A stretch of 64,000 bases of DNA from an uncultured Candidatus Saccharibacteria bacterium (GTDB lineage: Bacteria > Patescibacteriota > Doudnabacteria > UBA920), in NCBI GenBank assembly GCA_964384035.1, contig CAYLIB010000001.1, positions 48,532 to 112,531 of the forward strand, written 5' to 3'. The stretch's first letter is position 1. Every line of letters starts with the position of its first letter. The notes under the pieces are model-generated. The model was not told the DNA's origin, searched no databases, and saw only the letters and a program-made list of their open reading frames with translations. The position numbers and the translations under genes are program-made. Shown in pieces: positions 2,939 through 50,776 of the stretch.

Positions 2939-2957
2939 GTAATTTATTCTTAATTTA

Positions 2958-3190
2958 GAGCTCCCAAATTACTTGTTCACCTTATCCGTAATAAAAAGGA
3001 TTCGAAGAGTCTTTTTATTACATAGAGAAAAGCAATTTGGAATAGAGGAAGATTTAATAGAGAGTGCAGTAGCCAGTTTTGCATAAGGCGTGATAGTAAC
3101 TGGCTTTGCCAGTAACAGATCATGTCAAACTGGTTACAAAGCTCGGAGACAAATCTAACGTGCGTAGGAGGACCTAATGAGGGTGAAAAA
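2958..3190 (+). repeat. R1 structured repeat, copy A (slightly degenerate)
   Basis: 'gagctcccaaattacttg', then a hairpin with a GAAGA loop, then 'aaagcaatttgga', then an AGTT/AACT hairpin. Same order as copies at 17641 and 25191. Confidence 0.6.
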
Positions 3191-9821: not shown

Positions 9822-9988
9822 AACATTAAACTTCCTCAAGCCACGGATCGCAAATTTGGGGTCAGATTATTGCGCAAATAATATTTAAAACCCAGCTCTG
9901 CTGGTTTTAAAATCAGTAATTCAGCTGTATGCTTAATGCTTAAAAGTAACAACCAAACTTGTGATCCCGTTTTCTGAGCACAAAAATT

Positions 9989-10831: not shown

Positions 10832-10995
10832 CCCCATTGCTCGGGGTTTTTAGTTGCCAAAACACGCGCTTTTAGGTATATTTAGAAAGTTATAAATAAA
10901 TTCCCTCGAATTTACTCATCCTTCTTATATTGAATTTATGCGATTCAAAATATAGCTTTTTCTCGATCCGGGTCCCCCGAGCCGAAAAAAATCAA

Positions 10996-11083
10996 CGGAA
11001 AGGGTGAGTAATGAGAGAAGCCTTAAAGGAATCAGGGTCTCCCTGTCCCTACTTAAGTGGAAAACCATATTTTCCCTCTCATA
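10996..11083 (+). promoter_or_regulatory. conserved leader motif 'cggaaagggtgagtaatgagag' with hairpin (atgagaggg.../...ccctctcat) upstream of infB
   Basis: The same 22-nt motif and hairpin recur at 21590-21635. Here the hairpin is interrupted by a 45-nt insert. Confidence 0.45.
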
Positions 11084-14580: not shown

Positions 14581-15066
14581 ATGAAAAGAGAATATTTTAT
14601 AAACCCACAAACAGAAAGAAAACTTATCCAAGCAGAGGAAAGAGGAGAAAAAAATGAACAAAGAGCATTTGATCTAGCTTTAAATCTAACCAACATACTA
14701 AAAGAAAAATATCCACAAATAGTCCTTTTTGCTTACTGCACAAGATCAGAAACTTACTCCAGAAAAGATAGAAAAGGAGAAGATATAAGAATACGTATAG
14801 AATCGGTAGCAGGGGGTAATACAAAAGAACATGGATACATTGTGTATGACGTAAAAAGTTCTGATTATGGAGCAAATCTCAAAAATACTGCTGATGCGAA
14901 ATTCAGTTCATACGTAAATGCAAAAAGGAAGGCTGGAAATATTAAAAATGCTAGATTATCAAAAACCCTGGTAGTTAACGAAAATAGAACTGATTATGAA
15001 ATCCAGGAACAAATACTAAAGGACCTAAAAGAAGTAAACTTATTACCAGATTCCATAGATCTATAG
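14581..15066 (+). CDS. hypothetical protein
   Basis: 161-aa ORF followed by a terminator hairpin at 15088-15116. Confidence 0.4.
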   Translation: MKREYFINPQTERKLIQAEERGEKNEQRAFDLALNLTNILKEKYPQIVLFAYCTRSETYSRKDRKGEDIRIRIESVAGGNTKEHGYIVYDVKSSDYGANLKNTADAKFSSYVNAKRKAGNIKNARLSKTLVVNENRTDYEIQEQILKDLKEVNLLPDSIDL

Positions 15067-15115: not shown

Positions 15116-15189
15116 TGGAGCGGCTAACGGGAATCGAACCCGTGTCCCTTCCTTGGCAAGGAAGAGTTCTACCATTGAACCATAGCCGC
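15116..15189 (-). tRNA. tRNA-Gly(GCC)
   Basis: Minus-strand fold. Acceptor GCGGCTA/TAGCCGC, anticodon loop TTGCCAA, T-arm ACGGGTTCGATTCCCGT, CCA encoded. Confidence 0.8.
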
Positions 15190-15216
15190 ACAATCTAAAA
15201 CTTATTTTACTACATC

Positions 15217-15353
15217 ATTCACGAGCGAAGCAATGTGAATGCGCCAACCAAAAGTAGCTCGCTACTTTTGAAAGGGACAACAAGGTAAACGAAGTGTAGT
15301 CTTTATGGAGCGAAAGCGTAATAAAGACGTAACGCAGTGAGCCTTGGTTGGCC
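15217..15353 (+). repeat. R2 tRNA-cluster spacer repeat, unit 1
   Basis: ATTCAC-gagcgaagcaat-GTGAAT hairpin, then a second hairpin (caaaagtagc/gctacttttg), then the core 'gaaagggacaacaagg..aacgaagtgtagtctttatggagcgaaagcgtaataaagacgtaacg.agtgagccttggttggcc'. Confidence 0.7.
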
Positions 15354-15358
15354 TGTGG

Positions 15359-15433
15359 TGGTGCCTCGGCTCAGAATCGAACTGAGTACGCAAGCCTCTT
15401 CAGGGCTTCGCTCTACCAATGAGCTACCGAGGC
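15359..15433 (-). tRNA. tRNA-Phe(GAA)
   Basis: Acceptor GCCTCGG/CCGAGGC, anticodon loop CTGAAGA, CCA encoded. Confidence 0.8.
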
Positions 15434-15473
15434 GCTTCTATATTCACGAGCGCAGCAATGTGAACCATTTATC

Positions 15474-15549
15474 TGGTGGACGCTACAGGACTCGAACCTG
15501 TGACATCTTCGGTGTAAACGAAGCGCTCTACCAACTGAGCTAAGCGTCC
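15474..15549 (-). tRNA. tRNA-Val(UAC)
   Basis: Acceptor GGACGCT/AGCGTCC, anticodon loop TTTACAC, CCA encoded. A truncated R2 hairpin at 15442-15472 sits just 3' of it. Confidence 0.8.
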
Positions 15550-15575
15550 ATACATATATTATAACTGAGACTATG

Positions 15576-15716
15576 ATTCACGAGCGCAGCAATGTGAATG
15601 TTTTTTGGGTCCCCGGCCACTCGTGGCTGGGGAGAGGGACAACAAGGTGAACGTAGTGTAAGGTTTATGAAGCGTAAGCGCAATAAAGACGTAACGTAGT
15701 GAAGAAAACTAGACCT
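15576..15716 (+). repeat. R2 spacer repeat, unit 2 (divergent)
   Basis: Same ATTCAC...GTGAAT hairpin. The second hairpin is replaced by ccccggccactcgtggctgggg. The core 'gagagggacaacaaggtgaacgtagtgta...aataaagacgtaacgtagtga' is retained. Confidence 0.65.
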
Positions 15717-15718
15717 TT

Positions 15719-15855
15719 ATTCACGAGCGAAGCAATGTGAATGCGCTAACCAAATGTAACTGGTTACATTTGAAAGGGACAACAAGGAGAACGAAGTGTA
15801 GTCTTTATGGAGCGAAAGCGTAATAAAGACGTAACGTAGTGAGCCTTGATTGGCC
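15719..15855 (+). repeat. R2 spacer repeat, unit 3
   Basis: About 90% identical to unit 1. Its second hairpin (caaatgtaac/gttacatttg) has compensatory changes relative to unit 1. Confidence 0.7.
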
Positions 15856-15857
15856 CG

Positions 15858-15942
15858 TGGTGCCCGAGGAGGGACTCGAACCCTCAAGCCTTACGGCATA
15901 CGCACCTCAAGCGTACGCGTATACCAATTCCGCCACCCGGGC
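15858..15942 (-). tRNA. tRNA-Leu(GAG), type II
   Basis: Acceptor GCCCGGG/CTCGGGC, anticodon loop TTGAGGT, long variable arm, CCA encoded. Confidence 0.75.
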
Positions 15943-17290: not shown

Positions 17291-17441
17291 TTAATTTCCT
17301 CCCGAAAAATTATGTTAAAGACTATAATAATAGATAACTAACGAATACTAATAAAATTATTTCTATATGTAAAGTGGAAAACCCCCACCGTTGATTTTTA
17401 CCCAAACTTAAAGTAAAATTGAGTAACGAAATCTCCCCTAA

Positions 17442-17545
17442 GTCGACTCATAAGAGTCGCATCCCCTAGCAGCAACTGCTGCGAGACAGGGGAGGCTCCA
17501 TAAGGGCTTTGCCCGTTGGAGGGGACGACGCTAGTCCCTATAGTA
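17442..17545 (+). repeat. 5' module of three hairpins immediately upstream of tRNA-Cys; homologous to 25062-25143
   Basis: gcagcaactgctgc, gggctttgccc and gggacgacgctagtccc correspond to gcggcaaagccgc, ggctctgcc and ggggcgacgcaagcccc at 25062-25143. The changes are compensatory. Both copies end '...cttagta(g)'. Confidence 0.6.
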
Positions 17546-17620
17546 GGTGCGTTGGCGAAGTGGTAACGCTGCGGTCTGCAAAACCGCCATGCGTGGGTTC
17601 GAATCCCACACGCACCTCCA
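17546..17620 (+). tRNA. tRNA-Cys(GCA)
   Basis: Acceptor GGTGCGT/ACGCACC, anticodon loop CTGCAAA, discriminator U73, CCA encoded. Confidence 0.8.
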
Positions 17621-17640: not shown

Positions 17641-17805
17641 GGGCTCCCAAATTACTTGCTTACCTATGAGTTTGTTTGAAAAAACCCGAAGAGGGATTTT
17701 TCAAAAAACAAAGAAAGAAGCAATTTGGGACAAGGAGAACTTGACGGAGAGTGCAGCTGTTAGTTCTGCACCGAACTGACAGCGGAGCTCGTAGACAAGT
17801 TGGAC
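17641..17805 (+). repeat. R1 structured repeat, copy B, between tRNA-Cys and tRNA-Leu
   Basis: 'gggctcccaaattacttg', a GAAGA-loop hairpin (gaaaaaaccc/gggatttttc), 'aaagaagcaatttggga' pairing back to the 5' end, 'ggagagtgcag', an AGTT/AACT hairpin, then 'cggagctcg...ggac'. Confidence 0.65.
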
Positions 17806-17807
17806 GC

Positions 17808-17894
17808 GCCCAGGTGGCGGAACTGGTATACGCTACGGACTTAAAATCCGTCGCCCGCAAGGGATTGAGGGTTCGATTCCCTCCCTGGGCACCA
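17808..17894 (+). tRNA. tRNA-Leu(UAA), type II
   Basis: Acceptor GCCCAGG/CCTGGGC, anticodon loop CTTAAAA, long variable arm, T-arm GAGGGTTCGATTCCCTC, CCA encoded. Confidence 0.8.
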
Positions 17895-18283
17895 CTAAAA
17901 ACACGTTGATAAAGTTAGCGTGTTTTTTAGTTAGTACATTTTCAAAACAAGGGAATCGAACCTTCGCGTTAGCGAAAACTTTAGGGAGTGAACCCATGCT
18001 CTGCTGGGTGAACACATCTGGGCTGGTTCACCAGATCCAGATTTAATAGCCAACCCTCCCTGGGCACCACAAAAAACATGCTAATTAAGTTAGCGTGTTT
18101 TTTTGTTTAAATAAGAATAGGCAAATTGGGGAATCGAACCTGAGCGAAGCGAAATCTTTAGGGAGTTTGAATCCAGCTTTGCTGGTTCAAACGTTCGGCG
18201 CAAGCCTGCGAAGTCGCCGATATATAGCCATCCCTCCCTGGGCACCACAAAAAACACGTTCTATATATGAACGTGTTTTTTAG
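17895..18283 (+). repeat. tandem array of two extra copies of the tRNA-Leu 3' end, each followed by a terminator hairpin and a ~160-nt paralogous spacer
   Basis: 'ccctccctgggcacca' occurs at 17879-17894 inside the tRNA and again at 18054-18069 and 18232-18247. Terminator hairpins at 17897-17927, 18071-18105 and 18249-18281 differ in their loops. The spacers begin 'gggaatcgaacc', an inverted T-arm. Confidence 0.65.
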
Positions 18284-18527
18284 TAATATGATGTACCCGG
18301 AGAAAACCTTAATTACATCATCATAAAACAGGTGAAAAATGGTTTAACCGGCGGAACCCAAAACGCGCGTCTTGAATTCCATATAAAACCTTCTTCCCGA
18401 ATACAAGGTGGAAGTTGGGACCATGGTAAGTCAGGCAAAGGGACAACCCAGCCAATCGATTAGCAGACAACCCAAACAAGGTCGTTTTTTATTTGGCAAC
18501 AACTGCATATACGTTTAAACTAAACTT

Positions 18528-21421: not shown

Positions 21422-21557
21422 ACTCAAACATACCGTAAAAGTGACGGTATTTTTTATTGCCTAATCCCCCATAAAAAAGTACAATACATAGGTACTTTTA
21501 ATAATTTATTAGCGGTTTTTTCTTCTCTTTTTGCCTTCCAAAGATGTAGCATTTCTA

Positions 21558-21635
21558 GGATCCGGCTTTGCCGGGCATAGAAATAACAGCGGAAAGGGTG
21601 AGTAATGAGAGGGAAAACCATGTTTTCCCTCTCAT
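21558..21635 (+). promoter_or_regulatory. upstream motif 'ggatccggctttgccgg', then leader motif 'cggaaagggtgagtaatgagag' with a perfect 13-bp hairpin ending at the start codon
   Basis: atgagagggaaaa-ccatg-ttttccctctcat abuts ATG 21636. The 22-nt motif is shared with the infB leader. 'tccggctttgccgg' also occurs at 31373-31386. Confidence 0.45.
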
Positions 21636-22592: not shown

Positions 22593-25061
22593 ATGGCAAA
22601 CAAAGAAATCGAAAAAACCGACGAATTTAATATCGGTACAGTCAAACCAAGAGATATTCAAACAGAAATGCAAGAATCCTACTTGGACTATGCAATGAGT
22701 GTTATCGTTAACCGCGCTCTTCCAGACATTAGAGATGGTCTAAAACCAGTACATAGACGTATATTTTATGCCATGCACGAATTAGGACTTAGACATAACG
22801 CTAAATTCCGTAAATCAGCCGCTGTTGTTGGTGAAGTGCTCGGTAAATACCACCCTCACGGTGACCAAGCAGTATACCAATCCATGGTCCACATGGCCCA
22901 AGACTTCGCTATGCGATATCCTCTCATAGACGGCCAAGGAAACTTTGGCTCTATGGATGGCGACGAAGCCGCTGCCATGCGTTACACGGAAGCCAGAATG
23001 GATTCACTCGCAGAAGAACTTCTTACAGATCTAGACAAAGAAACCGTTGAATGGCGAGATAACTACGACGCAACAAGGAAAGAGCCTTCTGTGCTCCCAG
23101 CAAAGCTTCCAAACCTTTTACTAAATGGAACTCTTGGCATCGCCGTTGGTATGGCCACAGACATACCCCCACATAACATAAGCGAAGTTATAGACGGCAT
23201 CACAATGCTTATAGAAGACCCAGAGGTAACCGTTGAAGATCTCACTACAGTAGTTAAAGGTCCAGATTTTCCTACCGGAGGTACAATCTACGATATCGCA
23301 AGCATAAGAAACGCATACGCTACAGGAAAAGGAAGCATAGTAATGCGAGGTAAAACCGAAATTGTAGAAACCAAAAGTGGCATGTTCCAAATTATCATCA
23401 ACGAAATTCCTTATCGTGTGAACAAAGCCACAATGCTCGAGAGAATTGCCGACCTGGTTCGTGACAAAAAAATTGAAGGTATAAAAGATGTACGTGATGA
23501 ATCCGACAAAGACGGCGTTAGGGTCGTAATCGACTTAAAAAAAGAAAGTTTACCAAACAAAATACTCAATCAGTTATTCTCTTACACCCAGCTCCAAGAA
23601 ACCTTTCACATGAACATGCTGGCGCTTATAGACGGACTAGAACCAAGGGTTCTAAACCTCAAAAGCATTCTGGAAGAATACATAAAACACAGACAAGTAG
23701 TTGTAAGAAGAAGAACGGAGTTCGATCTCAAAAAAGCAAAAGAACGAGCACACATTTTAGAGGGTTTAACTATTGCGCTAGACCACATAGACGAAGTCAT
23801 AAACACCATAAGAAAGAGCGCAACAAAAGAAGAGGCCCACGCTAACTTAATGAAAAAGTTTAAGTTAAGCACTCTTCAAGCTCAAGCTATCCTAGATATG
23901 AGACTGCAAACACTCGCAGGTCTCGAAAGAAAGAAAATAGACGATGAGTTAAAAGAGAAAAGAAAACTTATCGCAGAACTCGAAGATATACTTAGCAAAC
24001 CAAAGCGTATTCTCGCTATTATAAAAACCGAAATTGCTGAACTCAAAGAAAAATATGGCGACGAGAGACGTACTCAAATAGTTAAGTCCCCTGTTGGCAC
24101 ATTCTCTGTAGAAGACCTTATTCCAGAAAACGAAAGTCTAATATCTTTCACTAAGAGTGGGTACATAAAACGTCTAGCTCCAGAAACCTACAAAGCCCAA
24201 GTTAGAGGAGGCAAAGGTGTCATAGGTACCGGACTAAAAGACGAAGACGTTGTTGAGAAGTTAATTTCCGCAAATACCCACGACGAAATCCTCTTCTTCA
24301 CCAACAAAGGGAGAGTATTCCTAACTAAAGTTTATGAACTACCAGAAGGAAGCAGAACTAGTAAAGGACAAGCTCTGGTTAACTTCCTAGAAATGGGTAC
24401 AGGCGAAACCGCTACAGCAATTCTGACCTTAAGCAAAAACGACTCAGTAAAATTCCTCGTAATGGCCACTAAGGGCGGGGTTATAAAAAAGGTTGCAAGA
24501 GAAGAATTCGCTAAAGTTAGAAGATCTGGACTTATCGCCATAAATCTAAAAGACGGAGATGAATTAAAATGGGTAGAAGGCAGCAGTGGAACAGACGAGA
24601 TTATCCTAGTATCAGAAAACGGAATGGCAATTCGTTTCAACGAGAAAGACGTAAGAGCAATGGGTAGGGTATCCACCGGCGTAGGAGGTATGAGACTTAA
24701 AAAAGGTGACTGCTTAATTTCAATGGATGTTATTGCCAAAACAGCAGACCAAAAAAATCTTGAAGTTTTGGTAATTACAGAAAAAGGTCTCGGCAAAAAG
24801 AGTCCAATCTCCGACTACAAGACCCAAAAAAGAGCCGGCGGTGGAGTAAAGACCCTAAAAATTACTCCAAAGACAGGTAAAGCCGTTGCAATGAATATCG
24901 TTAACAACAAAGATGAAAACGACCTCGTAATCATTTCCAAGCAAGGCCAAACCCTAAGAACACCCCTAAACTCCATCTCCACCCTAGGCCGAGCCACCCA
25001 AGGCGTAAGAGTAATGAGATTAGACGATGGAGACTCAGTGGCTAGCGTAACGGTCATTTAA
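22593..25061 (+). CDS. gyrA: DNA gyrase subunit A
   Basis: Sequence motifs '[11 protein letters not shown]', '[11 protein letters not shown]' and 'DGQGNFGS' plus a C-terminal beta-pinwheel. 822 aa. gyrB is not adjacent. Confidence 0.95.
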
Positions 25062-25191
25062 TAGCGGCAAAGCCGCGAGAAGGGAGGCTCGAATCTGGCT
25101 CTGCCAGTTCGAGGGGCGACGCAAGCCCCCTTAGTAGCAAGTCATGAGATTAGACGATGGCGATAGCGTAGCAAGCGTTACTGTCATTTAG
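25062..25191 (+). repeat. 5' module (homolog of 17442-17545) followed by a second, synonymously recoded copy of the last 15 gyrA codons
   Basis: 25144-25191 'atgagattagacgatggcgatagcgtagcaagcgttactgtcatttag' encodes [15 protein letters not shown]. This is identical in peptide to gyrA 25014-25061. Nine of the 16 codons (including the stop) are synonymously changed. Confidence 0.7.
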
Positions 25192-25380
25192 GGGTCCTAA
25201 ATTACTTGCTTACATATTAGTTTTAGAACAAAGCGCGAAGAGCGCTTTTTTCTAAAACATAGAAAGAAGCAATTTGGGAAGAGGAGAACTTTATGGAGAC
25301 TGCAGTAATTAGTTTTATATCAAACTAATTACGGAGGTCGAAATAAAGTGGGACGAGTAAGTGTGACTGTTATCTAAAAC
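25191..25380 (+). repeat. R1 structured repeat, copy C
   Basis: 'ggggtcctaaattacttg', a GAAG-loop hairpin (agcgc/gcgct), 'aaagaagcaatttggga', 'ggagactgcag', an AGTTT/AAACT hairpin (gtaattagttt/aaactaattac), then 'cggaggtcg...ggac'. Confidence 0.65.
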
Positions 25381-25414
25381 CCTAACCTTAATTAAATATA
25401 AAAATAAGCGACTC

Positions 25415-25783
25415 CTAAACGGGGTCGCTTTCGTTTTTTACCAGTTCAAGAATTCTCCTCTCAATTGTTATAAGATTAACGTTTAAAGGAAAACAAAATT
25501 GAGGAATTTCGGGATATTTCATTTGAGATTCACGCCAACTCTTAAGTGATATAGTAACACCAAAAGATTTCTCATGCTTATCGGTCCAAATCGTAAAATC
25601 TTTACCCTCACCATCGGCAACCGAATGGGGCCTGTGTCTCTTGTATTTGGTTATATACCCTTTCACCTTAAGTTCTTCTAATAATTTCTCGACCTTAGAC
25701 TCCAAATCTCTACCGAATTCGGAATATCTTTTAGATTTTCTTTCACGATAAGCCTGAAAATCTCGTTTATTCTTCCAACCCAT
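25415..25783 (-). CDS. hypothetical protein
   Basis: 122-aa basic ORF. Confidence 0.35.
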   Translation of the reverse strand: MGWKNKRDFQAYRERKSKRYSEFGRDLESKVEKLLEELKVKGYITKYKRHRPHSVADGEGKDFTIWTDKHEKSFGVTISLKSWRESQMKYPEIPQFCFPLNVNLITIERRILELVKNESDPV

Positions 25784-28309: not shown

Positions 28310-28445
28310 ATTCACGAACCAAGCAATGTGAATCTATAACGGGGCCCCCGGGCACTCGTGACTGGGGAGAGGGACAACACGGGGCCACCAAATAACTCGA
28401 CCACACATTGTTTAAAAAAGATTCGAAGAGTCTTTTTTAACATAG
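28310..28445 (+). repeat. partial R2 unit (ATTCAC...GTGAAT hairpin + 'ggggagagggacaaca') followed by a degenerate R1 5' part with GAAGA-loop hairpin
   Basis: 'attcacgaaccaagcaatgtgaat...ccccgggcactcgtgactggggagagggacaacac', then 'ccaccaaataactcg...aaaaaagattcgaagagtctttttt'. Two terminator hairpins lie at 28254-28311. Confidence 0.5.
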
Positions 28446-28588
28446 CGGTGAGATATTTGGTATCAGGTTAATCCCTCACCGGATTCACTCAGGGGAGGGT
28501 GCTAATCTCGGGAAAAGCGGGAGCAAGGCGAACATGAGTTTGGACGGGATTACTTCCCGTACAGACTCGCGTGAACCTTGCTCACGCT

Positions 28589-31332: not shown

Positions 31333-31451
31333 GATTGCAGATTTTAGTTAATATTAGAATCGTAATTTTAGAATCCGGCTTTGCCGGTTATAAAATTAGC
31401 TATTGACTGAGAGCGTCAATGCAACTAGTAGAAGCCAAAATATGCGATCCC
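31333..31451 (+). repeat. R3 element copy 2
   Basis: 'gattgcagatttt...caaaatatgcgatccc'. The interior contains 'gaatccggctttgccgg' and a ttgac/gtcaa hairpin. It ends 6 nt before the yebC start. Confidence 0.5.
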
Positions 31452-32177: not shown

Positions 32178-32204
32178 AAAAAAACGCCCAAGGCGTTTTT
32201 TTTG
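32176..32204 (+). terminator. rho-independent terminator after yebC
   Basis: aaaaaaaaacgcccaaggcgtttttttt. Confidence 0.6.
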
Positions 32205-32282
32205 TCTTAATCGTCATTCTCTATTCGTCATTCTTCATTCGTTATGCTTTATTCTTAATTCGTTATTCGCTATTCTTCATTC

Positions 32283-32747
32283 ATGATTATATTAGGACTG
32301 GATCCAGGTACTGCCACAACAGGTTTTGCCATAATCCAAAGAGAAAAAAACTTTCCTCTGAAAATTCTGGAACTTGGAGTTATTTCCACTAGTCCCAAAA
32401 AAACCGATGCTGAAAGACTCTGTGAATTGGCGGAAGATATTGAAGCCCTTCTACTAAAATATAAACCGGACAAAGTAGGAATAGAAAAGCTATATTTTGA
32501 AACCAACCAAAAAACCGCCATGACAGTAAGCCAAGCCCGTGGTGTCTTGCTTTACTTGCTTACAAAATACAAAATACCAACTCTCGAACTCACTCCACTT
32601 CAAGTAAAAAGTCGCACTACCGGTTTCGGCAAAGCAGACAAAAAACAAATGCAAACAGCTGTTAAATTACTATTTAAACTAAAAACAATCCCCAAACCCG
32701 ACGACGCCGCCGACGCCCTAGCTATCGCTTTTTGTGTAAGTTTGTAA
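32283..32747 (+). CDS. ruvC: crossover junction endodeoxyribonuclease RuvC
   Basis: 'MIILGLDPGTATTGFAIIQ' N-terminus and 'DAADALAIAF' near the C-terminus. Confidence 0.85.
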   Translation: MIILGLDPGTATTGFAIIQREKNFPLKILELGVISTSPKKTDAERLCELAEDIEALLLKYKPDKVGIEKLYFETNQKTAMTVSQARGVLLYLLTKYKIPTLELTPLQVKSRTTGFGKADKKQMQTAVKLLFKLKTIPKPDDAADALAIAFCVSL

Positions 32748-41068: not shown

Positions 41069-41302
41069 TTAAACTACAGGATCTACTTCTGGTTTTGCAA
41101 AAGGATTACACTTAATAATTCGTTTCACCGACATTAGCATACCTATCACAAAACCCTTCTTCACCACAGCTTGTTTAGCATATTCACTACAAGAAGGGTA
41201 AAATCTACAAAAACCATAAGGATATCTGGCTCTAAAGATACCATGATCCGGCGACAGCGTCTTCTGATATATATTTATTAATAAAATAATAATCGTCTTC
41301 AT
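41069..41302 (-). CDS. yidD: membrane protein insertion efficiency factor YidD
   Basis: 'YQKTLSPDHG...CRFYPSCSEYAKQAV...KRIIKCNPF'. Confidence 0.8.
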   Translation of the reverse strand: MKTIIILLINIYQKTLSPDHGIFRARYPYGFCRFYPSCSEYAKQAVVKKGFVIGMLMSVKRIIKCNPFAKPEVDPVV

Positions 41303-41333
41303 TCTCTATTCGTTATTCTTCATTCACCACTCT

Positions 41334-41672
41334 TCACTTTATTAACTTTACAAACTTTAAAAACTTTATAAACTCACTAGCTATAGCTTTGTCATATATC
41401 TCCATTGCTTTTGGTTTTACTGTAAAAATATAGTCACCATACGCAAATCTCTCCAAATTATCCCTTATAACTACCCTGACTATCCTTTTCATTCTGTTTC
41501 TCACAACAGCCTTCTTGGATACCTTGGTAGAGACAACGACTGTAAATCTTTTAGCTGAACTTTCTGTTTTTTTAAATTTAGCCATAAAAAAAGGACTAAA
41601 AAAAGCCCGCCCCCTAGCAAAGGTAGCTTGAACTTCCCTTGTTTTTTGGAGACGATGCTTTTCAGGTAGCAT
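41334..41672 (-). CDS. rnpA: ribonuclease P protein component
   Basis: 'LPEKHRLQKTREVQATFARGR' N-terminus plus the conserved position after rpmH. Confidence 0.8.
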   Translation of the reverse strand: MLPEKHRLQKTREVQATFARGRAFFSPFFMAKFKKTESSAKRFTVVVSTKVSKKAVVRNRMKRIVRVVIRDNLERFAYGDYIFTVKPKAMEIYDKAIASEFIKFLKFVKLIK

Positions 41673-45031: not shown

Positions 45032-46156
45032 ATGTTTCAAAAGTTAAAAAGCAAACAAATAATTAAAGTTTCCAAAATTGTTGTAGCAGCACTTGTCCTT
45101 GGTATATTTGGTCTCCAACCCGCACCCGTAAACGCTGCTTCACTAACAACTGTAAAAGATACCCTTACCAGAATCGAACAAGCCCAAACCGCAGACCATA
45201 CAATAACATTTACACTCCCAGGTGGAGCCTCAAGCTTCGTAGCTGGCGATAAAATGTCCATTGACTTCCCAGCAAACTTCGTAACCTCAACGGGCTGGGC
45301 AACCTCAGATTTCACCTTTAACGACGGTACTTCAAGAACCATAACCACAGTAGGCACCAACTCTACTCCTACCTGTACGGCTGGTACTAATAATGTTTCT
45401 GTAGAAATTACAACAGCAAGCGACCTATTTGTAATTACCGCCTGTTCTACCTTCACAGCAAACTCATCAGCCAACATTACATTCACCATTCAAGGTACTG
45501 GCGCTAACGGAACCCTCACGAACCCTTCTTCTCCTGAGACTTCCGTAGTGGCAATAGTAGGTGATGATAAAGGAAACGGGTTCGGTTCAGACGACGACAC
45601 CGCTTCCCTAGCTATCCCAATCATCGCAGACGATACAGTTACAATTACAGCTACCGTGGACCCAACTATTACCTTCTCAATATCAGATACAGCTATTTCA
45701 TTTGGAACCCTGTCTTCGGGAGCTGCGCGGTACGCTACTGGAGACGGAACCAGTACATCTACTGACCCCTCTGGTGGTGCTCACAACCTACAAATCTCTA
45801 CCAATGCCACCAGCGGTTACATCGTTACTTACAAAGGTGCAACACTAACCAGCGGAGCTAACACTATCGATGTTCCAGGTACATTCATAAACAACGACGC
45901 CAACGGTACTCCAGGACAAGAAGAATTCGCTCTTTCTGTAAACAGACAAACCGGTACCGGTACGGTTGCCGCCAACTACCAATACACCGACCCAGACTGG
46001 GACTTCGACGCCAACACTACCACTACCATTTACACCCAAACCGCAGCAACCAACACTGAAACTCTAGAAATTCACTACCTCGCTAATATAGCTGGCGCTA
46101 CTCAAGCTGGCACCTACACCACAGACGTTACTTACATAGCTACTGGAACGTTCTAA
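45032..46156 (+). CDS. secreted beta-rich surface protein, paralog 1
   Basis: Signal peptide with AxA site (PVNA/AS). T/S/G/N-rich. C-terminus '...GTYTTDVTYIATGTF'. The last 565 nt are identical to 47946-48510. Confidence 0.55.
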   Translation: MFQKLKSKQIIKVSKIVVAALVLGIFGLQPAPVNAASLTTVKDTLTRIEQAQTADHTITFTLPGGASSFVAGDKMSIDFPANFVTSTGWATSDFTFNDGTSRTITTVGTNSTPTCTAGTNNVSVEITTASDLFVITACSTFTANSSANITFTIQGTGANGTLTNPSSPETSVVAIVGDDKGNGFGSDDDTASLAIPIIADDTVTITATVDPTITFSISDTAISFGTLSSGAARYATGDGTSTSTDPSGGAHNLQISTNATSGYIVTYKGATLTSGANTIDVPGTFINNDANGTPGQEEFALSVNRQTGTGTVAANYQYTDPDWDFDANTTTTIYTQTAATNTETLEIHYLANIAGATQAGTYTTDVTYIATGTF

Positions 46157-46164
46157 ATACATTC

Positions 46165-46190
46165 AAAACCGCCCATAAGGGCGGTTTTAT
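46165..46190 (+). terminator. rho-independent terminator
   Basis: aaaaccgcccataagggcggttttatt. Confidence 0.55.
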
Positions 46191-46233
46191 TATTCCTCAT
46201 GTTATAATTCCCTTAGAATATTTTACTTAACCA

Positions 46234-47295
46234 ATGCCTAGCTCTAAATTCTTCGTTATTCGTATATTCTCTCTATTCGTTATTCTCTATTCGTTACTCT
46301 TCATTCCACGCGAAGCTAGCGCCCTTACCATATCTCCTCCCAGATTAGAGACCTCGGCAGACCCAGGTCAAACAATAGAACAAGAAGTAAAAATCATCAA
46401 TGAAGAAAGATCCTCACGAACACTCTATATTGTTCCTCAAAACTTTGAAGCCAAAGACGAAAGCGGAGAACCAAATTACGTCGAAGGCACAGAAAACCTA
46501 GCCGGTTGGATAAAAGTAGCAAAATCAGTAAATCTCGGACCAGGTGAAGAAAAATTTGTAAAATTTTCTATTTCGGTTCCACCCACTGCTGAACCTGGTG
46601 GATATTTTACAGCTCTATTCTTCCAAAGTGAACCCCCTAGCTTTGAACAAGGTGCTGGTATTGGTATAGGTAGCCAGTTAGGAAGTTTAATTCTTTTAAA
46701 AGTTAATGGTGCTATAGGAGAGCAAGCGGGTATACTCGAATTTGCTACTAAAAACAAAGATCGCACTTTCTTAAATCTACCTATAGAATTCTACTACCGT
46801 TTCCAAAACACAGGAGACACGTGGGTTAAACCTTTAGGTGAAGTCTTTATAACAAACACATTCGGAAAAAGAGTAAAACTCCTTACAGCGAACAGGCAAA
46901 AAGGAAATGTGCTACCCAAAAGCATTCGCAAATTCGAAACTGCATGGTTAAATAGCGGTGGAAATATAAAGGAAGACCCAAAAGGTGAAATTGAATACCC
47001 AAAACTAGAAGATTTCTGGGCAAATGTAAAATATCAATATAGCAATTTCGCTTTCGGACTCTACACTGCCAAACTCCATTTAGCTTACGGCACAAATCCT
47101 GTGCAGGTAGGAGAAACAACTTTCAAATTTATCGTATTTCCTTGGCAGCTCACATTAGTAAGTACCATTCTCGCCATAATTATCTTAATTATTCTGAGAA
47201 TACTTATTAAAAAATACAATCAAAGTATTATTAGAAAAGCCCAAAATCAAATTCAAAGTAAAGACAACCCTACTTCCAAACGAGGTAAAAAATAA
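46234..47295 (+). CDS. CscA/DUF916-DUF3324-like cell-surface protein with C-terminal TM anchor
   Basis: Signal peptide, 'ALTISPPRLETSADPGQTIEQEVKIIN', C-terminal TM with K/R tail (WQLTLVSTILAIIILIILRILIKKYN). Confidence 0.45.
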   Translation: MPSSKFFVIRIFSLFVILYSLLFIPREASALTISPPRLETSADPGQTIEQEVKIINEERSSRTLYIVPQNFEAKDESGEPNYVEGTENLAGWIKVAKSVNLGPGEEKFVKFSISVPPTAEPGGYFTALFFQSEPPSFEQGAGIGIGSQLGSLILLKVNGAIGEQAGILEFATKNKDRTFLNLPIEFYYRFQNTGDTWVKPLGEVFITNTFGKRVKLLTANRQKGNVLPKSIRKFETAWLNSGGNIKEDPKGEIEYPKLEDFWANVKYQYSNFAFGLYTAKLHLAYGTNPVQVGETTFKFIVFPWQLTLVSTILAIIILIILRILIKKYNQSIIRKAQNQIQSKDNPTSKRGKK

Positions 47296-47390
47296 AATAT
47301 AAAAAACACCAAATAGTTCTTTGGTGTTTTTTAAAAATTAAAAAATAATTTTATGTTATACTTTTTCTATAAAACAACTTTATAAATTCC

Positions 47391-48509
47391 ATGTTAAAGC
47401 TTCTAAACAAAAATCAAAAAATAACAAAGTTAGTTATCACTGCATTAATCCTCAGCGTGTTTGGTCTCCAACCTTCACCCGTAAACGCTGCTTCACTAAC
47501 AACTGTAAAAGACACCCTTACCAGAATCGAACAAGCCCAAACCGCAGACCATACAGTACAATGGACATTACCCGGCGGCGCATCTAGTTTCGTTGCTGGA
47601 GATAAGGCAAGAGTAGATTTCCCGGCAAACTTTGTTACTAGTACAGAATCGGGTTGGGTAGCCGGAGACTTCACGTACAACGATGGTACCTCAAGAACTA
47701 TTGTAGCAGTGGGAGCATCACCGTCATGTTCTGCAGGTGCCAACAATATTACTGTCCAAATAGACTCTGCTAATGACCAATTTATTATCACAGCCTGCGC
47801 TTCCTTTACCGCTAACTCCTCAGCTAATGTTTCATTTACTATAGACGGAACCACAACAGACGGAACCCTTACAAATCCTTCTTCCCCAGAAACATCCGTG
47901 GTAGCTATCGTCGGTGACGATCAGGGCGACGGCTTCGGAAGCAATGACGACACCGCTTCCCTAGCTATCCCAATCATCGCAGACGATACAGTTACAATTA
48001 CAGCTACCGTGGACCCAACTATTACCTTCTCAATATCAGATACAGCTATTTCATTTGGAACCCTGTCTTCGGGAGCTGCGCGGTACGCTACTGGAGACGG
48101 AACCAGTACATCTACTGACCCCTCTGGTGGTGCTCACAACCTACAAATCTCTACCAATGCCACCAGCGGTTACATCGTTACTTACAAAGGTGCAACACTA
48201 ACCAGCGGAGCTAACACTATCGATGTTCCAGGTACATTCATAAACAACGACGCCAACGGTACTCCAGGACAAGAAGAATTCGCTCTTTCTGTAAACAGAC
48301 AAACCGGTACCGGTACGGTTGCCGCCAACTACCAATACACCGACCCAGACTGGGACTTCGACGCCAACACTACCACTACCATTTACACCCAAACCGCAGC
48401 AACCAACACTGAAACTCTAGAAATTCACTACCTCGCTAATATAGCTGGCGCTACTCAAGCTGGCACCTACACCACAGACGTTACTTACATAGCTACTGGA
48501 ACGTTCTAA
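47391..48509 (+). CDS. secreted beta-rich surface protein, paralog 2
   Basis: N-terminal half is about 60% identical to paralog 1. The C-terminal 188 aa are identical. Confidence 0.55.
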   Translation: MLKLLNKNQKITKLVITALILSVFGLQPSPVNAASLTTVKDTLTRIEQAQTADHTVQWTLPGGASSFVAGDKARVDFPANFVTSTESGWVAGDFTYNDGTSRTIVAVGASPSCSAGANNITVQIDSANDQFIITACASFTANSSANVSFTIDGTTTDGTLTNPSSPETSVVAIVGDDQGDGFGSNDDTASLAIPIIADDTVTITATVDPTITFSISDTAISFGTLSSGAARYATGDGTSTSTDPSGGAHNLQISTNATSGYIVTYKGATLTSGANTIDVPGTFINNDANGTPGQEEFALSVNRQTGTGTVAANYQYTDPDWDFDANTTTTIYTQTAATNTETLEIHYLANIAGATQAGTYTTDVTYIATGTF

Positions 48510-48578
48510 AAAAACTAAAAGAGCTTTTGCTTAATGCAAAAGCTCTTTTGTTTTATTTCTACGTGTTAAAATAATCTT

Positions 48579-49676
48579 ATGCGTAACAAAATTTTATCTT
48601 CTATCTACTTATTCATCTTTATTTTTTCCTCCTTTTTTGGAGTAGCCAACGCACAAACACTGAATTCTACCAACTACAACCTAGAAAACTCGTCGTTTAA
48701 TTTCGGTGGCGAAGAAAGCAGCTCAACAAACTATAAATCGCAAGACTCAGTAGGTGACGCAAACGATTCAGGCTCAAGCTCTACGAATTACAAAGTCTTT
48801 CCTGGTACAATACAGCCCGTATATCCAGGTGTACCGGGTATACCAACCTTAACCAATACAGGTGGCACACTTTATAACTCCCTCGACTTTGTGGTCACAG
48901 AAGGCCCCGGAAACGCAAGCGACGTACTGTATGCAATAGCAATCTCGGACGACAACTTCACTACAACCTATTTTATTCAAACAGATGACACATTAGGAGC
49001 TAGCGCAGTTTGGCAAACTTATACCAACTGGGGAAGCGGAACTGGTGAAAGAGTTACGGGTCTTAAAAGCAACACCACTTACAAAATAAAAGTAAAAGCC
49101 CGCTTCGAAGCCGATACAGAAACCCCTTATTCTGTTGAAGCCAGTGCCGCTACAGCCAATCCTTCAATCTCAGTTAGCTTTGCTGGAATATCCAGCAGCA
49201 CCAGCGTAGAAGGCCAAACAACAACTATCACATCTACCGCAACAACTGTCCCCTTTGGCACTCTTATTGTAAGCACCCCCGCCGTAGGTGCTCAGAGAAT
49301 AACAGTTAGCACAAACGCCGTTAACGGATACACAACAACTATCCAACAAAACCAAGACCTGACCCAAGCTCAAAGCAAAACCATAGACGGCGTATCCGGC
49401 ACCAACGCCTCCCCCTCCAGTTTTCCCGGAAGTGTTTCTCGTGGAGCGTTTGGTTACCACACTAGCGACACTACTCTATGCACTGGCACTACTGGAAGGT
49501 TTACTGCTGACGACACTTACGCAAAAATAACCACCACAGCGCTAGAAATTGCCTGTAACACAGGAACAGCCTCAAGCGAACAAACTGACATAGTATACAA
49601 ACTTCTAATTGGACCCCTACAAGAAAACGGCGCCTACACAAACGACGTAACATTCATAACCACTGGCACCTTTTAA
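48579..49676 (+). CDS. secreted beta-rich surface protein, related family (C-terminus '...GAYTNDVTFITTGTF')
   Basis: Signal peptide, T/S-rich, shares the C-terminal TGTF motif with the paralogs. Confidence 0.5.
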   Translation: MRNKILSSIYLFIFIFSSFFGVANAQTLNSTNYNLENSSFNFGGEESSSTNYKSQDSVGDANDSGSSSTNYKVFPGTIQPVYPGVPGIPTLTNTGGTLYNSLDFVVTEGPGNASDVLYAIAISDDNFTTTYFIQTDDTLGASAVWQTYTNWGSGTGERVTGLKSNTTYKIKVKARFEADTETPYSVEASAATANPSISVSFAGISSSTSVEGQTTTITSTATTVPFGTLIVSTPAVGAQRITVSTNAVNGYTTTIQQNQDLTQAQSKTIDGVSGTNASPSSFPGSVSRGAFGYHTSDTTLCTGTTGRFTADDTYAKITTTALEIACNTGTASSEQTDIVYKLLIGPLQENGAYTNDVTFITTGTF

Positions 49677-49741
49677 AAAAATAACGCAATAAAAATCTCG
49701 GCACACCGAGATTTTTATTTTCATCATGTTAAAATGAATTC

Positions 49742-50776
49742 ATGCGCATCTCTAAATTCTCCATTAGTCATTCGTTACCTGTCCTCCGTAGCTTCAGCGT
49801 AGGAGGATTCGTCATTCTTTATTCTCTATTCGTCATTCTCTATTCACCATTCCCTAAAACTACTTTCGCCCAGTCAACATTGCCGACCGAAAAACCCTAC
49901 CTAAGCCAAAACGCCCTCTCCATAGCACCGTTTATAATCGAAGAGAGCATGGAAAAAGGACAAACAATAGAAAAAGAAATAGAAATTAGCAATATAGGAG
50001 ACGTCCCACTACCCCTAAGTCTCAGTATCAACGACTTCATTCCAGTAGATAAAGAAGGCCATGTCCGCTTTCTTTCCGAGGAAGAAAAAAAAGATGACAG
50101 ATTTTCTCTCTCTCACTGGATCACAATCACGGAACAACCTGAATTCAACATCAAAGCACTAAGCAAAACAAAAGTAAAATTCAAAATTACCGCCCCCGTC
50201 TCGGCTGAACCAGGAACTCATTATGGTGGTTTATTATTTGGCTACGAACCAACAGTCCAAAATATTCCTGGAACGAAAGTAAAGCAGAAACTCGGCGCAC
50301 TTGTGATCATTACACTAGGCAAAGCTAAAGAGCAGGGAGAAATAAGCGGGTTTTTAGTAAACCAAGACTGGAAATCTAAAAGTATATTGGAATTCTCAAC
50401 AATATTTAAAAATACAGGGAGAAGTAGAGTAATTCCTAAAGGAGAAATAGAAATAAGAAATTGGTACGGAAAAATTATCTCAAGTAGCCACATAAACGTC
50501 GACGGTTCGATTGTACTTCCAGAAACCGAACGAAACTTCGTTACTAAATTGGAAAAACCCTTTTTATTAGGCTATTATACAGCAGAGAGTTTTGTACAAT
50601 TTGGTAATCCTAAACAAGAAAAAAGGGTAAAAATGAGCTTCTGGGTACTACCAGTAAAACCCATAATTTCTGTCTTAGCTTTTATTTCACTATTCACCCT
50701 AAGTCTATATTTTGGCCTCAAACGTTACAATCGCTGGCTAATAAAAAAAGTCGGCTTAGAAACTAAAAACCAATAA
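49742..50776 (+). CDS. CscA/DUF916-like cell-surface protein with C-terminal TM anchor
   Basis: 'LSIAPFIIEESMEKGQTIEKEIEISNIGDVPL' plus a C-terminal TM and basic tail. Confidence 0.45.
   Translation: MRISKFSISHSLPVLRSFSVGGFVILYSLFVILYSPFPKTTFAQSTLPTEKPYLSQNALSIAPFIIEESMEKGQTIEKEIEISNIGDVPLPLSLSINDFIPVDKEGHVRFLSEEEKKDDRFSLSHWITITEQPEFNIKALSKTKVKFKITAPVSAEPGTHYGGLLFGYEPTVQNIPGTKVKQKLGALVIITLGKAKEQGEISGFLVNQDWKSKSILEFSTIFKNTGRSRVIPKGEIEIRNWYGKIISSSHINVDGSIVLPETERNFVTKLEKPFLLGYYTAESFVQFGNPKQEKRVKMSFWVLPVKPIISVLAFISLFTLSLYFGLKRYNRWLIKKVGLETKNQ

What the first reader, a model, noticed from the sequence alone, without database searches (positions are those of the whole stretch)
25014..25380. gyrA 3' terminus duplicated 83 nt downstream with synonymous recoding, sandwiched between repeat modules
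gyrA ends ...ATGAGATTAGACGATGGAGACTCAGTGGCTAGCGTAACGGTCATTTAA at 25014-25061. At 25144-25191 the sequence ATGAGATTAGACGATGGCGATAGCGTAGCAAGCGTTACTGTCATTTAG encodes the same 15 residues, [15 protein letters not shown]. Nine codons, including the stop, differ synonymously. Both copies therefore evolved under coding constraint. This is the footprint expected when an element inserts into a gene's 3' end while carrying its own replacement 3' end from another lineage. tRNA-integrating elements and some protein-gene-integrating islands leave this footprint. The structured 5' module (25062-25143) lies between the copies and R1 copy C follows. The homologous pair of modules flanks tRNA-Cys at 17.5 kb. 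Together this suggests a mobile or formerly mobile element family that targets gene 3' ends.
Basis: partly seen in the sequence, partly recalled or inferred. Interest (0 to 1): 0.75.

Follow-up and report, generated by a model that had tools for sequence, protein, structure and literature searches.

The report
Tiny repeat elements duplicating gene ends
The duplicated, synonymously recoded end of gyrA is real: two tiny structured repeat elements sit in the gyrA 3' UTR, each bracketed by copies of the gene's end, and one belongs to an apparently undescribed element family found in several bacterial phyla and in phage contigs.

Summary
Observation confirmed and extended. gyrA (22593-25061) ends in a 48-nt tail (25014-25061). 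The tail recurs at 25144-25191 with 10 nt differences in 8 codons, all synonymous. A third partial copy (VSVTVI*, 25357-25377) follows. Between the copies lie two structured modules, M5 (25062-25143) and R1 (25192-25356). Four independent assemblies carry the arrangement; three related genera have empty sites.

M5 belongs to a conserved three-hairpin element family of about 95-110 nt. It has strong covariation, no Rfam match and no paper hit. Hosts include Nitrospirota, Desulfobacterota, Patescibacteria and two IMG/VR contigs. Copies are flanked by direct target duplications of 19-70 nt. At gene ends this duplicates the tail, and differences are again almost all synonymous (40 vs 2 codons pooled).

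The likely cause is that the copies are different alleles joined by homologous recombination that stops at the element. In L128 versus empty-site L151, identity jumps from about 89% to 99.7% exactly at the element. The displaced L084 tail is the functional allele of empty-site relatives.

No integrase lies near gyrA, and none recurs beside the modules. The primary insertion mechanism is unknown.

The parts
22593..25061 (+). gyrA (822 aa); closest relatives are Candidatus Doudnabacteria
25014..25061 (+). tail copy 1: the last 15 codons plus TAA of the functional gyrA
25062..25143 (+). M5_gyrA: a diverged member of the widespread three-hairpin element family. The covariance-model hit spans 25035-25144 at 62.9 bits.
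25144..25191 (+). tail copy 2 (displaced): same 15 residues plus TAG; 10 synonymous nt differences, with the first 17 nt identical to copy 1
25192..25356 (+). R1_gyrA: two-hairpin structured element (fold z = -7.0) found only in this lineage
25357..25377 (+). tail copy 3 (displaced): VSVTVI* (ASVTVI* in strain L004/L147), contiguous with the native downstream sequence
25406..25430 (+). intrinsic-terminator-like hairpin. Everything from copy 1 to copy 3 therefore lies in the gyrA 3' UTR. No sigma-70-like promoter is predicted in 24900-25500.
17440..17545 (+). M5_Cys: a family member in the 5' leader of tRNA-Cys (69.6 bits), abutting the mature 5' end of the tRNA
17546..17620 (+). tRNA-Cys(GCA), lying between M5_Cys and R1_Cys
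17641..17807 (+). R1_Cys, abutting tRNA-Leu(TAA). In strain L147 the homologous R1 is followed by a 67-nt partial tRNA-Cys copy.
17879..18284 (+). tRNA-Leu(TAA) 3' end (17 nt, at 17879, 18054 and 18232) plus terminator, present three times. The copies are separated by units U1 (about 17932-18053) and U2 (18112-18222). U2 is a diverged M5-family member (E = 5e-5 and 1e-4).
2956..3164 (+). R1_3kb: a third R1 copy (86.6 bits) carrying an extra inserted hairpin; no flanking duplication detected

Best explanation
The gyrA 3' UTR holds two small, non-autonomous, structured repeat elements, M5 and R1. Each is bracketed by a direct duplication of the gene's 3' end. The upstream copy keeps gyrA intact, and the displaced copies accumulate downstream in the order copy 1 - M5 - copy 2 - R1 - copy 3 - native terminator.

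M5 is a diverged member of a conserved three-hairpin element family of about 95-110 nt. The family is interspersed in intergenic DNA, and occasionally lies in frame inside ORFs. It occurs in Nitrospirota, Desulfobacterota, Patescibacteria and some phage contigs. R1 is a second element restricted to this lineage as far as tested.

Shown:
- family membership and RNA-type structure with covariation;
- flanking target duplications of 19-70 nt at many unrelated loci;
- empty sites in relatives;
- presence/absence and copy-number polymorphism among close strains;
- almost exclusively synonymous (or, for the L147 tRNA-Cys T-stem, structure-preserving) differences between duplicated copies.

Inferred: the synonymous-only differences arise because the copies are different alleles of the same gene end. 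Each allele evolved as a functional end in its own lineage. Homologous recombination between diverged relatives then brought them together, with a tract that necessarily ends where homology ends, at the element junction. At gyrA the break would lie after nt 17 of the tail.

Unknown: the enzyme and mechanism of primary insertion. The element has a variable 5' extent, a constant 3' end, no terminal inverted repeats and no recurrent gene in cis.
For: Structure and family:
- An M5-only covariance model finds U2 at E = 5e-5.
- In the 69-sequence alignment 89.9% of cells are paired. There are 130 double-sided changes against 39 in shuffles (0 of 500 shuffles reach the observed value). The covariation score is 0.249 against at most 0.044 for slid controls.
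- There is no Rfam match and no paper holds the consensus string.

Hosts.

Target duplications and tail copies. Pooled over the tail copies there are 45 nt differences, 37 at codon position 3, giving 40 synonymous against 2 non-synonymous codon differences.

Empty sites at gyrA in L005, L144 and L145.

Allele mixing:
- L128 versus empty-site L151 shows 85-93% identity over the 600 nt to the left of the element and 99-100% over the 2.2 kb to the right. Displaced copy 2 matches the L151 allele with 1 difference.
- The middle tail of L084 (KGMEKGCKA) is close to the functional allele of empty-site L153/L154 (same residues, 3 nt differences). L155 encodes the same protein and is occupied, with a displaced tail of a third allele.
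- In strain L147, R1 is followed by a 67-nt partial tRNA-Cys with a compensatory T-stem change. L147 has one U unit where the window has two.
- gyrA shows mosaic divergence between the two strains.
Against: - No empty or differently recombined gyrA allele was found within this species. All four assemblies carry identical copies 1 and 2, so allele mixing at gyrA itself is inferred by analogy.
- The last 31 nt of copies 1 and 2 differ by 32%. That is as much as between genera, a divergence at which RecA-type recombination is inefficient.
- Three displaced copies start exactly at an ATG preceded by GTC. Many modules end in a TATAAT-like box. In-situ translation of displaced tails is therefore not excluded.
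- The primary insertion mechanism, and the reason the duplication ends within a few nt of the stop codon in all six coding cases, are unexplained.
- Orientation relative to neighbouring genes is only weakly biased.
Confidence: 0.62

Rival explanations
1. Integrase-type integrative element. A site-specific recombinase integrates a small element whose attP contains a gyrA 3' end from a former host. The identical 17 nt would be the crossover core.
For: - The identical 17-nt block followed by saturated synonymous divergence looks like attL/attR.
- tRNA 3'-end repeats next to related units resemble tandem tRNA-targeting islands.
Against: - No integrase or recombinase family was found in the ten neighbouring ORFs tested, and none recurs near 120 family loci.
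- The element is only 82 nt.
- The same family occupies dozens of unrelated targets with 19-70 nt duplications and no common core.
- In L128 the diverged tract covers at least 600 nt of the flanking gene.
Confidence: 0.08
2. The displaced tails are kept by selection in place. The module provides a promoter or re-initiation site and the displaced tail is translated as a mini-ORF, for example to preserve translational coupling with the next gene. Purifying selection in situ then gives synonymous-only change.
For: - Copy 2 starts with ATG at gyrA, L128 and L106, and many modules end in a TATAAT-like box 5-12 nt before an ATG.
- In L128 copy 2 keeps the ATGA overlap with trpA.
- By outgroup comparison, both L128 copies changed only at third positions.
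Against: - No promoter is predicted in the gyrA 3' UTR.
- The L084 copies have no start codon.
- Coupling does not require conserving the amino-acid sequence.
- The same allele-like pattern appears in a partial tRNA-Cys, where translation is irrelevant.
- The displaced tails in L084 and L155 match or resemble functional alleles of other lineages, amino-acid changes included.
- The flank-identity jump in L128 explains the differences without selection.
Confidence: 0.12
3. M5 and R1 are ordinary cis-acting RNA elements (3' UTR stabilisers, processing sites or terminators) rather than mobile DNA. The tail copies would come from local tandem duplication or slippage.
For: - Covariation includes G-U pairs, and R1 folds far better than shuffles (z = -6 to -7).
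- The elements lie in transcribed leaders and UTRs.
- Tandem arrays exist (L115, L038, L054).
Against: - Near-identical sequence occurs across phyla and in phage ORFs.
- Presence/absence is polymorphic among strains encoding an identical protein.
- Many hits lie at contig ends, which suggests a multi-copy repeat.
- Simple tandem duplication gives X-M-X-M, not X-M5-X-R1-X.
- Function and mobility are not mutually exclusive.
Confidence: 0.1
4. Assembly or binning artefact that joins gyrA ends from two strains.
For: The window is a metagenome-derived CPR genome, and the differences look like strain variants.
Against: Identical junctions occur in four independent assemblies from different projects, including a roughly 90%-identical strain. 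The same architecture recurs at other loci and in other phyla.
Confidence: 0.01

Closest known systems
REP/BIME (REPIN) elements and other small non-autonomous bacterial repeats (ERIC, Correia, BOX, RUP)
   Same: Short (about 100 nt), hairpin-forming and multi-copy, with no coding capacity. Mostly intergenic, just downstream of stop codons or upstream of starts, and transcribed with neighbouring genes.
   Different: - It has three distinct hairpins with an almost invariant primary sequence across phyla.
- No GTAG-type REP head or terminal inverted repeats were detected.
- It is flanked by long, variable duplications (19-70 nt) instead of none or 2-10 bp.
- No RAYT or transposase partner was identified.
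(The properties of the known families are from my own knowledge.)
Rickettsia palindromic elements (RPE)
   Same: Some copies sit in frame and free of stop codons inside protein-coding genes: atpG in L064, a phage protease-capsid linker in L011, and a sigma-like ORF in L019. The family also occurs next to RNA genes.
   Different: It is unrelated in sequence and occurs in several phyla. RPEs are not known to duplicate gene ends (my own knowledge).
Prophage e14 / phage 21 integration into icd, and tRNA-targeting islands that carry a replacement gene 3' end
   Same: The gene's 3' end is present twice. The functional copy and the displaced copy differ by synonymous changes because they come from different lineages.
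   Different: Those are kilobase-sized elements with an integrase and a fixed att core (my own knowledge). Here the element is 82-165 nt, has no integrase nearby, and targets many unrelated sites. The lineage difference extends through the flanking gene.
Homology-facilitated illegitimate recombination, and flank co-conversion in homing
   Same: One side of the event is ordinary homologous recombination in the flanking gene. The other junction lies at the end of homology. Flanks on the two sides of the insertion have different ancestry.
   Different: These are known as laboratory or intron-homing phenomena (my own knowledge). They have not been described as the routine fate of a repeat-element family, and they do not explain the primary insertion.

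Membership tests
Site-specific integrative element (tyrosine/serine integrase, attL/attR) | Integrase or recombinase gene within or next to the element | tested here: not met
   Pfam scan of 10 neighbouring ORFs found no recombinase. No recurrent neighbour family was found in 120 loci.
Site-specific integrative element (tyrosine/serine integrase, attL/attR) | A fixed core sequence shared by all insertion sites | tested here: not met
   The targets are unrelated (gyrA, trpB, dapB, hslU, porB-like, tRNA flanks, gene starts). Duplications range from 19 to 70 nt.
Site-specific integrative element (tyrosine/serine integrase, attL/attR) | Direct repeats of the target gene's 3' end flanking the element | tested here: met
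Classical MITE | Terminal inverted repeats | tested here: not met
   End-to-end complementarity was no better than in mismatched controls (mean 4.4 vs 4.5 nt). The control is weak if the ends are conserved across copies.
Classical MITE | Short target-site duplication of fixed length | tested here: not met
   The duplications are long and variable: 19, 24, 30, 36, 39, 45, 48 and 70 nt.
Classical MITE | Multi-copy, non-coding, size below about 300 nt | tested here: met
REP/REPIN with RAYT | A 20-40 nt imperfect palindrome with a conserved tetranucleotide head, and a RAYT gene in the genome | not tested
   The three-hairpin architecture differs by inspection. Whole genomes were not available to look for RAYT.
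Diversity-generating retroelement (TR/VR pair) | Differences between the copies confined to adenines of the template; reverse transcriptase nearby | tested here: not met
   The differences are C/A, T/C, AGC/TCA, A/G, A/T, T/A, T/G and G/A at third codon positions. No RT was found among the neighbours.
Any Rfam 15 family (ribozymes, riboswitches, leaders, sRNAs) | Covariance-model match | tested here: not met
   Nothing reached gathering score in the window or in 14 family loci. With E up to 10 on the two window loci, the only hits in the gyrA region fall on R1 or the terminator and are well below threshold; nothing falls on M5.
Self-splicing or processed intron | Removal at the RNA level, so that frame and stop codons inside the element do not matter | tested here: inconclusive
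   All three intra-ORF copies are in frame and free of stop codons, which argues for translation rather than splicing. No RNA data are available.

The most novel reading that the evidence does not exclude
The M5 family would be a new kind of mobile DNA. It would be a protein-less structured module of about 100 nt that spreads within and between phyla, and through phages, by hitch-hiking on homologous recombination. Each copy is bracketed by a captured piece of its target (a gene tail, a tRNA end or a terminator). That piece serves as the homology arm for entering the same gene in a new lineage, so arrays of displaced tails become a record of past donors. Primary insertion would use an unknown mechanism that produces long, variable duplications. 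Its variable 5' extent and constant 3' end resemble target-primed retroposition, which is not known for such elements in bacteria.
Probability: 0.3. Interest if true: 0.85.

Novelty: new variant of a known kind. Interest (0 to 1): 0.7.

Why it matters
If confirmed, this is a widespread and highly conserved element family shared by Nitrospirota, Desulfobacterota, CPR bacteria and phage contigs. I found no match for it in Rfam, in GenBank phage or plasmid collections, or in the paper library.

Its insertions preserve essential genes by duplicating their ends. They mark recombination breakpoints between diverged lineages. The resulting arrays of displaced, still coding-like gene ends are a readable record of gene flow in uncultivated bacteria.

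It also gives a general, testable explanation for recoded gene-end duplications, which could otherwise be mistaken for integrase footprints, assembly errors or engineered DNA.

The near-invariant three-hairpin core implies a conserved partner (a protein, or the RNA's own activity) that is still to be found.

Tried and rejected
- **Rfam:** gathering and permissive scans of the window loci and of 14 family loci found nothing.
- **DGR template/variable repeat:** rejected because the substitution pattern is not adenine-specific.
- **Intron or bypass element:** unlikely, because intra-ORF copies are in frame and stop-free, and copy 1 already ends gyrA normally.
- **tmRNA-like or tRNA-like reading of M5:** ARAGORN and Rfam gave no support.
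- **R1 pattern scan of GTDB species representatives:** only the species' own genome and chance hits.
- **R1 pattern in IMG/VR:** chance hits only.
- **R1 covariance model over 100 sources (window plus 99 loci):** only the window and strain L147.
- **A loose hairpin descriptor for M5:** not specific, with counts similar to shuffles.
- **Neighbour-gene clustering around 120 loci:** the clusters were dominated by translations of the module itself; no recurrent enzyme emerged.
- **Terminal inverted repeats:** no signal.
- **Orientation relative to flanking ORFs:** only a weak bias, and ORF calling is noisy in GC-rich contigs.
- **Promoter scan of the gyrA 3' UTR:** none found.
- **GenBank phage and PLSDB plasmid collections:** no match to the consensus.
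- **Literature:** searches by consensus string and by keywords found nothing relevant.
- **Flanking duplications for R1_3kb and M5_Cys:** none above background.
- **Constraint on copy 2 from the window versus L004 comparison:** inconclusive. There were 0 differences in 48 nt, but local divergence is only about 2.5%.
Full report
**1. The observation**

gyrA occupies 22593-25061 on the + strand and encodes 822 aa. Its closest relatives are Candidatus Doudnabacteria and other Patescibacteria.

- The last 48 nt (25014-25061) encode [15 protein letters not shown].
- The same peptide plus a stop is encoded again at 25144-25191, after an 82-nt spacer.
- The copies differ at 10 nt in 8 codons, stop included, and every difference is synonymous. 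One is the three-base serine switch TCA/AGC.
- In 5000 simulations of 10 random substitutions, none gave zero amino-acid changes.
- The differences are not evenly spread. The first 17 nt are identical and the last 31 nt differ by 32%. That is as much as either copy differs from the gyrA tails of other genera.
- A third, shorter copy lies at 25357-25377. It reads VSVTVI* in the window and ASVTVI* in a second strain, and is again recoded only at third positions.
- The whole arrangement recurs in four independent assemblies. One of them is a strain only about 90-93% identical in DNA, so it is not an assembly chimera.
- Three related genera (L005, L144, L145) end gyrA with a stop and no module or second tail copy follows it; L005 and L145 show a terminator-like hairpin soon after the stop. 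These are empty sites.

**2. What lies between the copies**

*Layout.* The order is copy 1 | M5 (25062-25143) | copy 2 | R1 (25192-25356) | copy 3 | native terminator (25406-25430). No sigma-70-like promoter is predicted in this stretch, so it is all gyrA 3' UTR.

*The tRNA-Cys locus.* The same two modules flank tRNA-Cys. M5_Cys (17440-17545) abuts the tRNA's 5' end. R1_Cys (17641-17807) lies between tRNA-Cys and tRNA-Leu.

*R1.*
- It folds into two long hairpins, far better than shuffled sequence (z = -6.2 and -7.0).
- The copies show compensatory changes.
- R1 has a third copy at 2956-3164 and a weak fourth at 28380-28548.
- A covariance model finds it only in the window and in the sister strain.

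*The tRNA-Leu locus.*
- Downstream of tRNA-Leu(TAA), the last 17 nt of the tRNA plus a terminator occur three times (at 17879, 18054 and 18232).
- They are separated by two units of about 120 nt.
- A model built only from M5 finds unit U2 at E = 5e-5, and the family model finds it at E = 1e-4.
- The M5 kind of module is therefore followed by a repeat of the upstream gene's end in three of its four copies in this window.

**3. M5 is one copy of a large family**

- A pattern taken from the two window copies found two true homologues in IMG/VR. One lies in frame in the linker of a phage protease-capsid fusion (L011). The other lies near the 5' end of a sigma-like ORF (L019).
- The consensus is about 95-110 nt: a variable hairpin 1 (often with tandem G.A), then GAGGGGGAGG, then a two-tier hairpin CUCCA..GGCUUUGCC..UGGAG, then GGGGCGACGCGAGCCCC, then UAUAAUAG.
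- On 69 sequences, 89.9% of cells pair. There are 130 double-sided changes against 39 in shuffles (0 of 500 shuffles reach this). The covariation score is 0.249 against at most 0.044 when the partners are slid.
- No Rfam family matches. No paper in the library holds the consensus string. GenBank phage and plasmid collections have no match.
- Host names attached to adjacent proteins place copies in Nitrospirota/Nitrospiria, Smithella, Syntrophorhabdales and other 'Deltaproteobacteria' MAGs. The Doudnabacteria window adds a further phylum. Locus GC content ranges from 0.40 to 0.68.
- Most copies sit 10-40 nt upstream of the start codons of assorted housekeeping genes. Many hits lie at contig ends and some form tandem arrays. 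Both fit a multi-copy interspersed repeat.
- The 3' boundary is constant and the 5' extent varies.
- No protein family recurs beside the copies. No terminal inverted repeats were detected.

**4. Target duplications are a family property**

- Direct repeats flank the module at many unrelated loci: 70 nt after a tRNA including its terminator (L067), 39 nt (L082), 36 nt (L092), 30 nt (L028) and 19 nt around a downstream start codon (L045).
- In at least six loci the repeat is the C-terminal tail of the upstream ORF. These are gyrA, trpB (L128), dapB (L106), hslU (L028), a porB-like gene (L084, three tails and two modules), and L082/L092.
- In the six coding cases I examined, the upstream copy ends within a few nt of the stop codon.
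- Pooled over these loci, the copies differ at 45 nt, 37 of them at codon position 3. That gives 40 synonymous against 2 non-synonymous codon differences.
- The gyrA pattern is therefore the rule for this family and not a peculiarity of one locus.
- A few copies instead lie in frame and free of stops inside ORFs, with no duplication seen by eye (atpG in L064, and L011, L019).

**5. Why the differences are synonymous**

Neutral decay of the displaced copy is excluded by the numbers above. Two loci show what happened.

*L128 (Nitrospiria).*
- trpB and trpA normally overlap by ATGA. That overlap is intact in the empty-site relatives L148-L152.
- L128 has 134 extra nt, made of the module plus a second tail.
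- Against L151, identity is 85-93% over the 600 nt to the left of the element, mostly third-position differences. It is 99-100% over the 2.2 kb to the right.
- Displaced copy 2, together with the four bases before it, is the L151 allele with one difference. Copy 1 is another allele.

*L084 (Syntrophorhabdales).*
- Relatives encoding a 98%-identical protein have a 38-nt empty spacer (L153, L154).
- L155 encodes the same protein as L153 and L154 (P0176) and is occupied.
- The middle tail of L084 carries the one apparently non-synonymous change (KGMEKGCKA). It encodes the same residues as the functional allele of L153, with 3 nt differences.
- The displaced tail of L155 is a third allele with amino-acid changes.

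*The sister strain of the window (L147).*
- R1 is followed by a 67-nt partial tRNA-Cys.
- Its T-stem differs by a compensatory pair (GTGGG/CCCAC against GCGGG/CCCGC). Its acceptor strand does not match the resident tRNA.
- This is a different functional allele and not a decayed copy.
- That strain has one U unit where the window has two.

*Inference.* The copies are alleles that evolved as working gene ends in different lineages. Homologous recombination joined them, with a tract that ends where homology ends, at the element junction. For gyrA this is an analogy. No differently recombined gyrA allele was found, although gyrA is visibly mosaic between the two strains.

**6. What remains unknown**

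- The primary insertion mechanism is unknown.
- Long, variable duplications, a constant 3' end and a variable 5' extent recall target-primed retroposition. One-sided (homology-facilitated) recombination could also create the duplication at transfer. Neither was tested.
- The stop-codon-adjacent boundary is unexplained.
- The ATG start of three displaced copies and the TATAAT-like 3' end keep in-situ expression on the table as a minority view.

**7. Verdict**

There are mobile repeat families at gene 3' ends, with tails from other lineages. This is not an integrase/att island.
- As far as these searches reach, the family is undescribed. I classify it as a new variant of the small non-autonomous repeat-element kind.

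Noticed in passing
window 17871-18284: The 3' end of tRNA-Leu(TAA) (17 nt) plus a terminator is present three times, separated by two structured units of about 120 nt (U1, U2). Each terminator copy keeps a good hairpin but with different stem and loop sequences. Strain L147 has only one unit, and its repeats match its own tRNA-Leu allele.
   Followed up: partly
window 15116-15942 (minus strand): The tRNA operon Leu(GAG)-Val-Phe-Gly has structured spacers of about 140 nt repeated at 92% identity (15217-15360 and 15719-15862). A 71-nt sub-repeat is present three times.
   Followed up: no
window 15217, 15442, 15576, 15719, 28310: The small hairpin ATTCACGAGCG[A/C]AGCAATGTGAAT occurs five times, always beside tRNA genes.
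   Followed up: no
window 28380-28548: A weak fourth R1-like copy (23.9 bits, E = 0.002) shares the apical AAAAAGATTCGAAGAGTCTTTTT hairpin with R1_3kb. It lies between an ORF end and tRNA-Ile.
   Followed up: partly
window 10947-11017 and 21541-21611; also 31368-31393 and 9885-9910: A conserved 5'-UTR-like 71-nt repeat contains a CCGGCUUUGCCGG hairpin and is followed by GGAAAGGGTGAGTAATGAGAG at two gene starts. The same GGCUYUGCC hairpin is the core of M5 hairpin 2 and occurs alone at other sites.
   Followed up: no
window 32195-32293, 41290-41357, 46257-46317, 49793-49856: Short arrays of a 14-nt period repeat (ATTCGTCATTCTCT-like) occur at four intergenic places.
   Followed up: no
window 45032-51891 and 52608-63047: A run of six ORFs of about 344-374 aa, at least some paralogous (repeats of 75-80% identity), is followed by a giant 3479-aa ORF with internal repeats.
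   Followed up: no
L064 4351-4463; L011 1100-1210 (minus); L019 982-1091 (minus): M5-family modules are inserted in frame, without stops, inside protein-coding genes. The genes are ATP synthase gamma in a low-GC contig (whose module is nearly identical to the window's), a phage prohead protease-capsid fusion, and a sigma-like ORF.
   Followed up: partly
L147 4467-4533: The sister strain carries a partial tRNA-Cys (positions 9 to CCA) after R1, with a compensatory T-stem change, followed by its own terminator and a 161-aa ORF. In the window that ORF lies elsewhere (14581-15066), so the locus has been rearranged between strains.
   Followed up: partly
protein P0120: A Patescibacteria gyrA homologue of 1265 aa carries intein-associated domains (PF14528, PF14890).
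   Followed up: no
L115 4889-5399; L038 5307-5696; L054 3662-3966: There are tandem arrays of the M5-family module: five copies with a 100-nt period in L115, and three copies each in L038 and L054.
   Followed up: no
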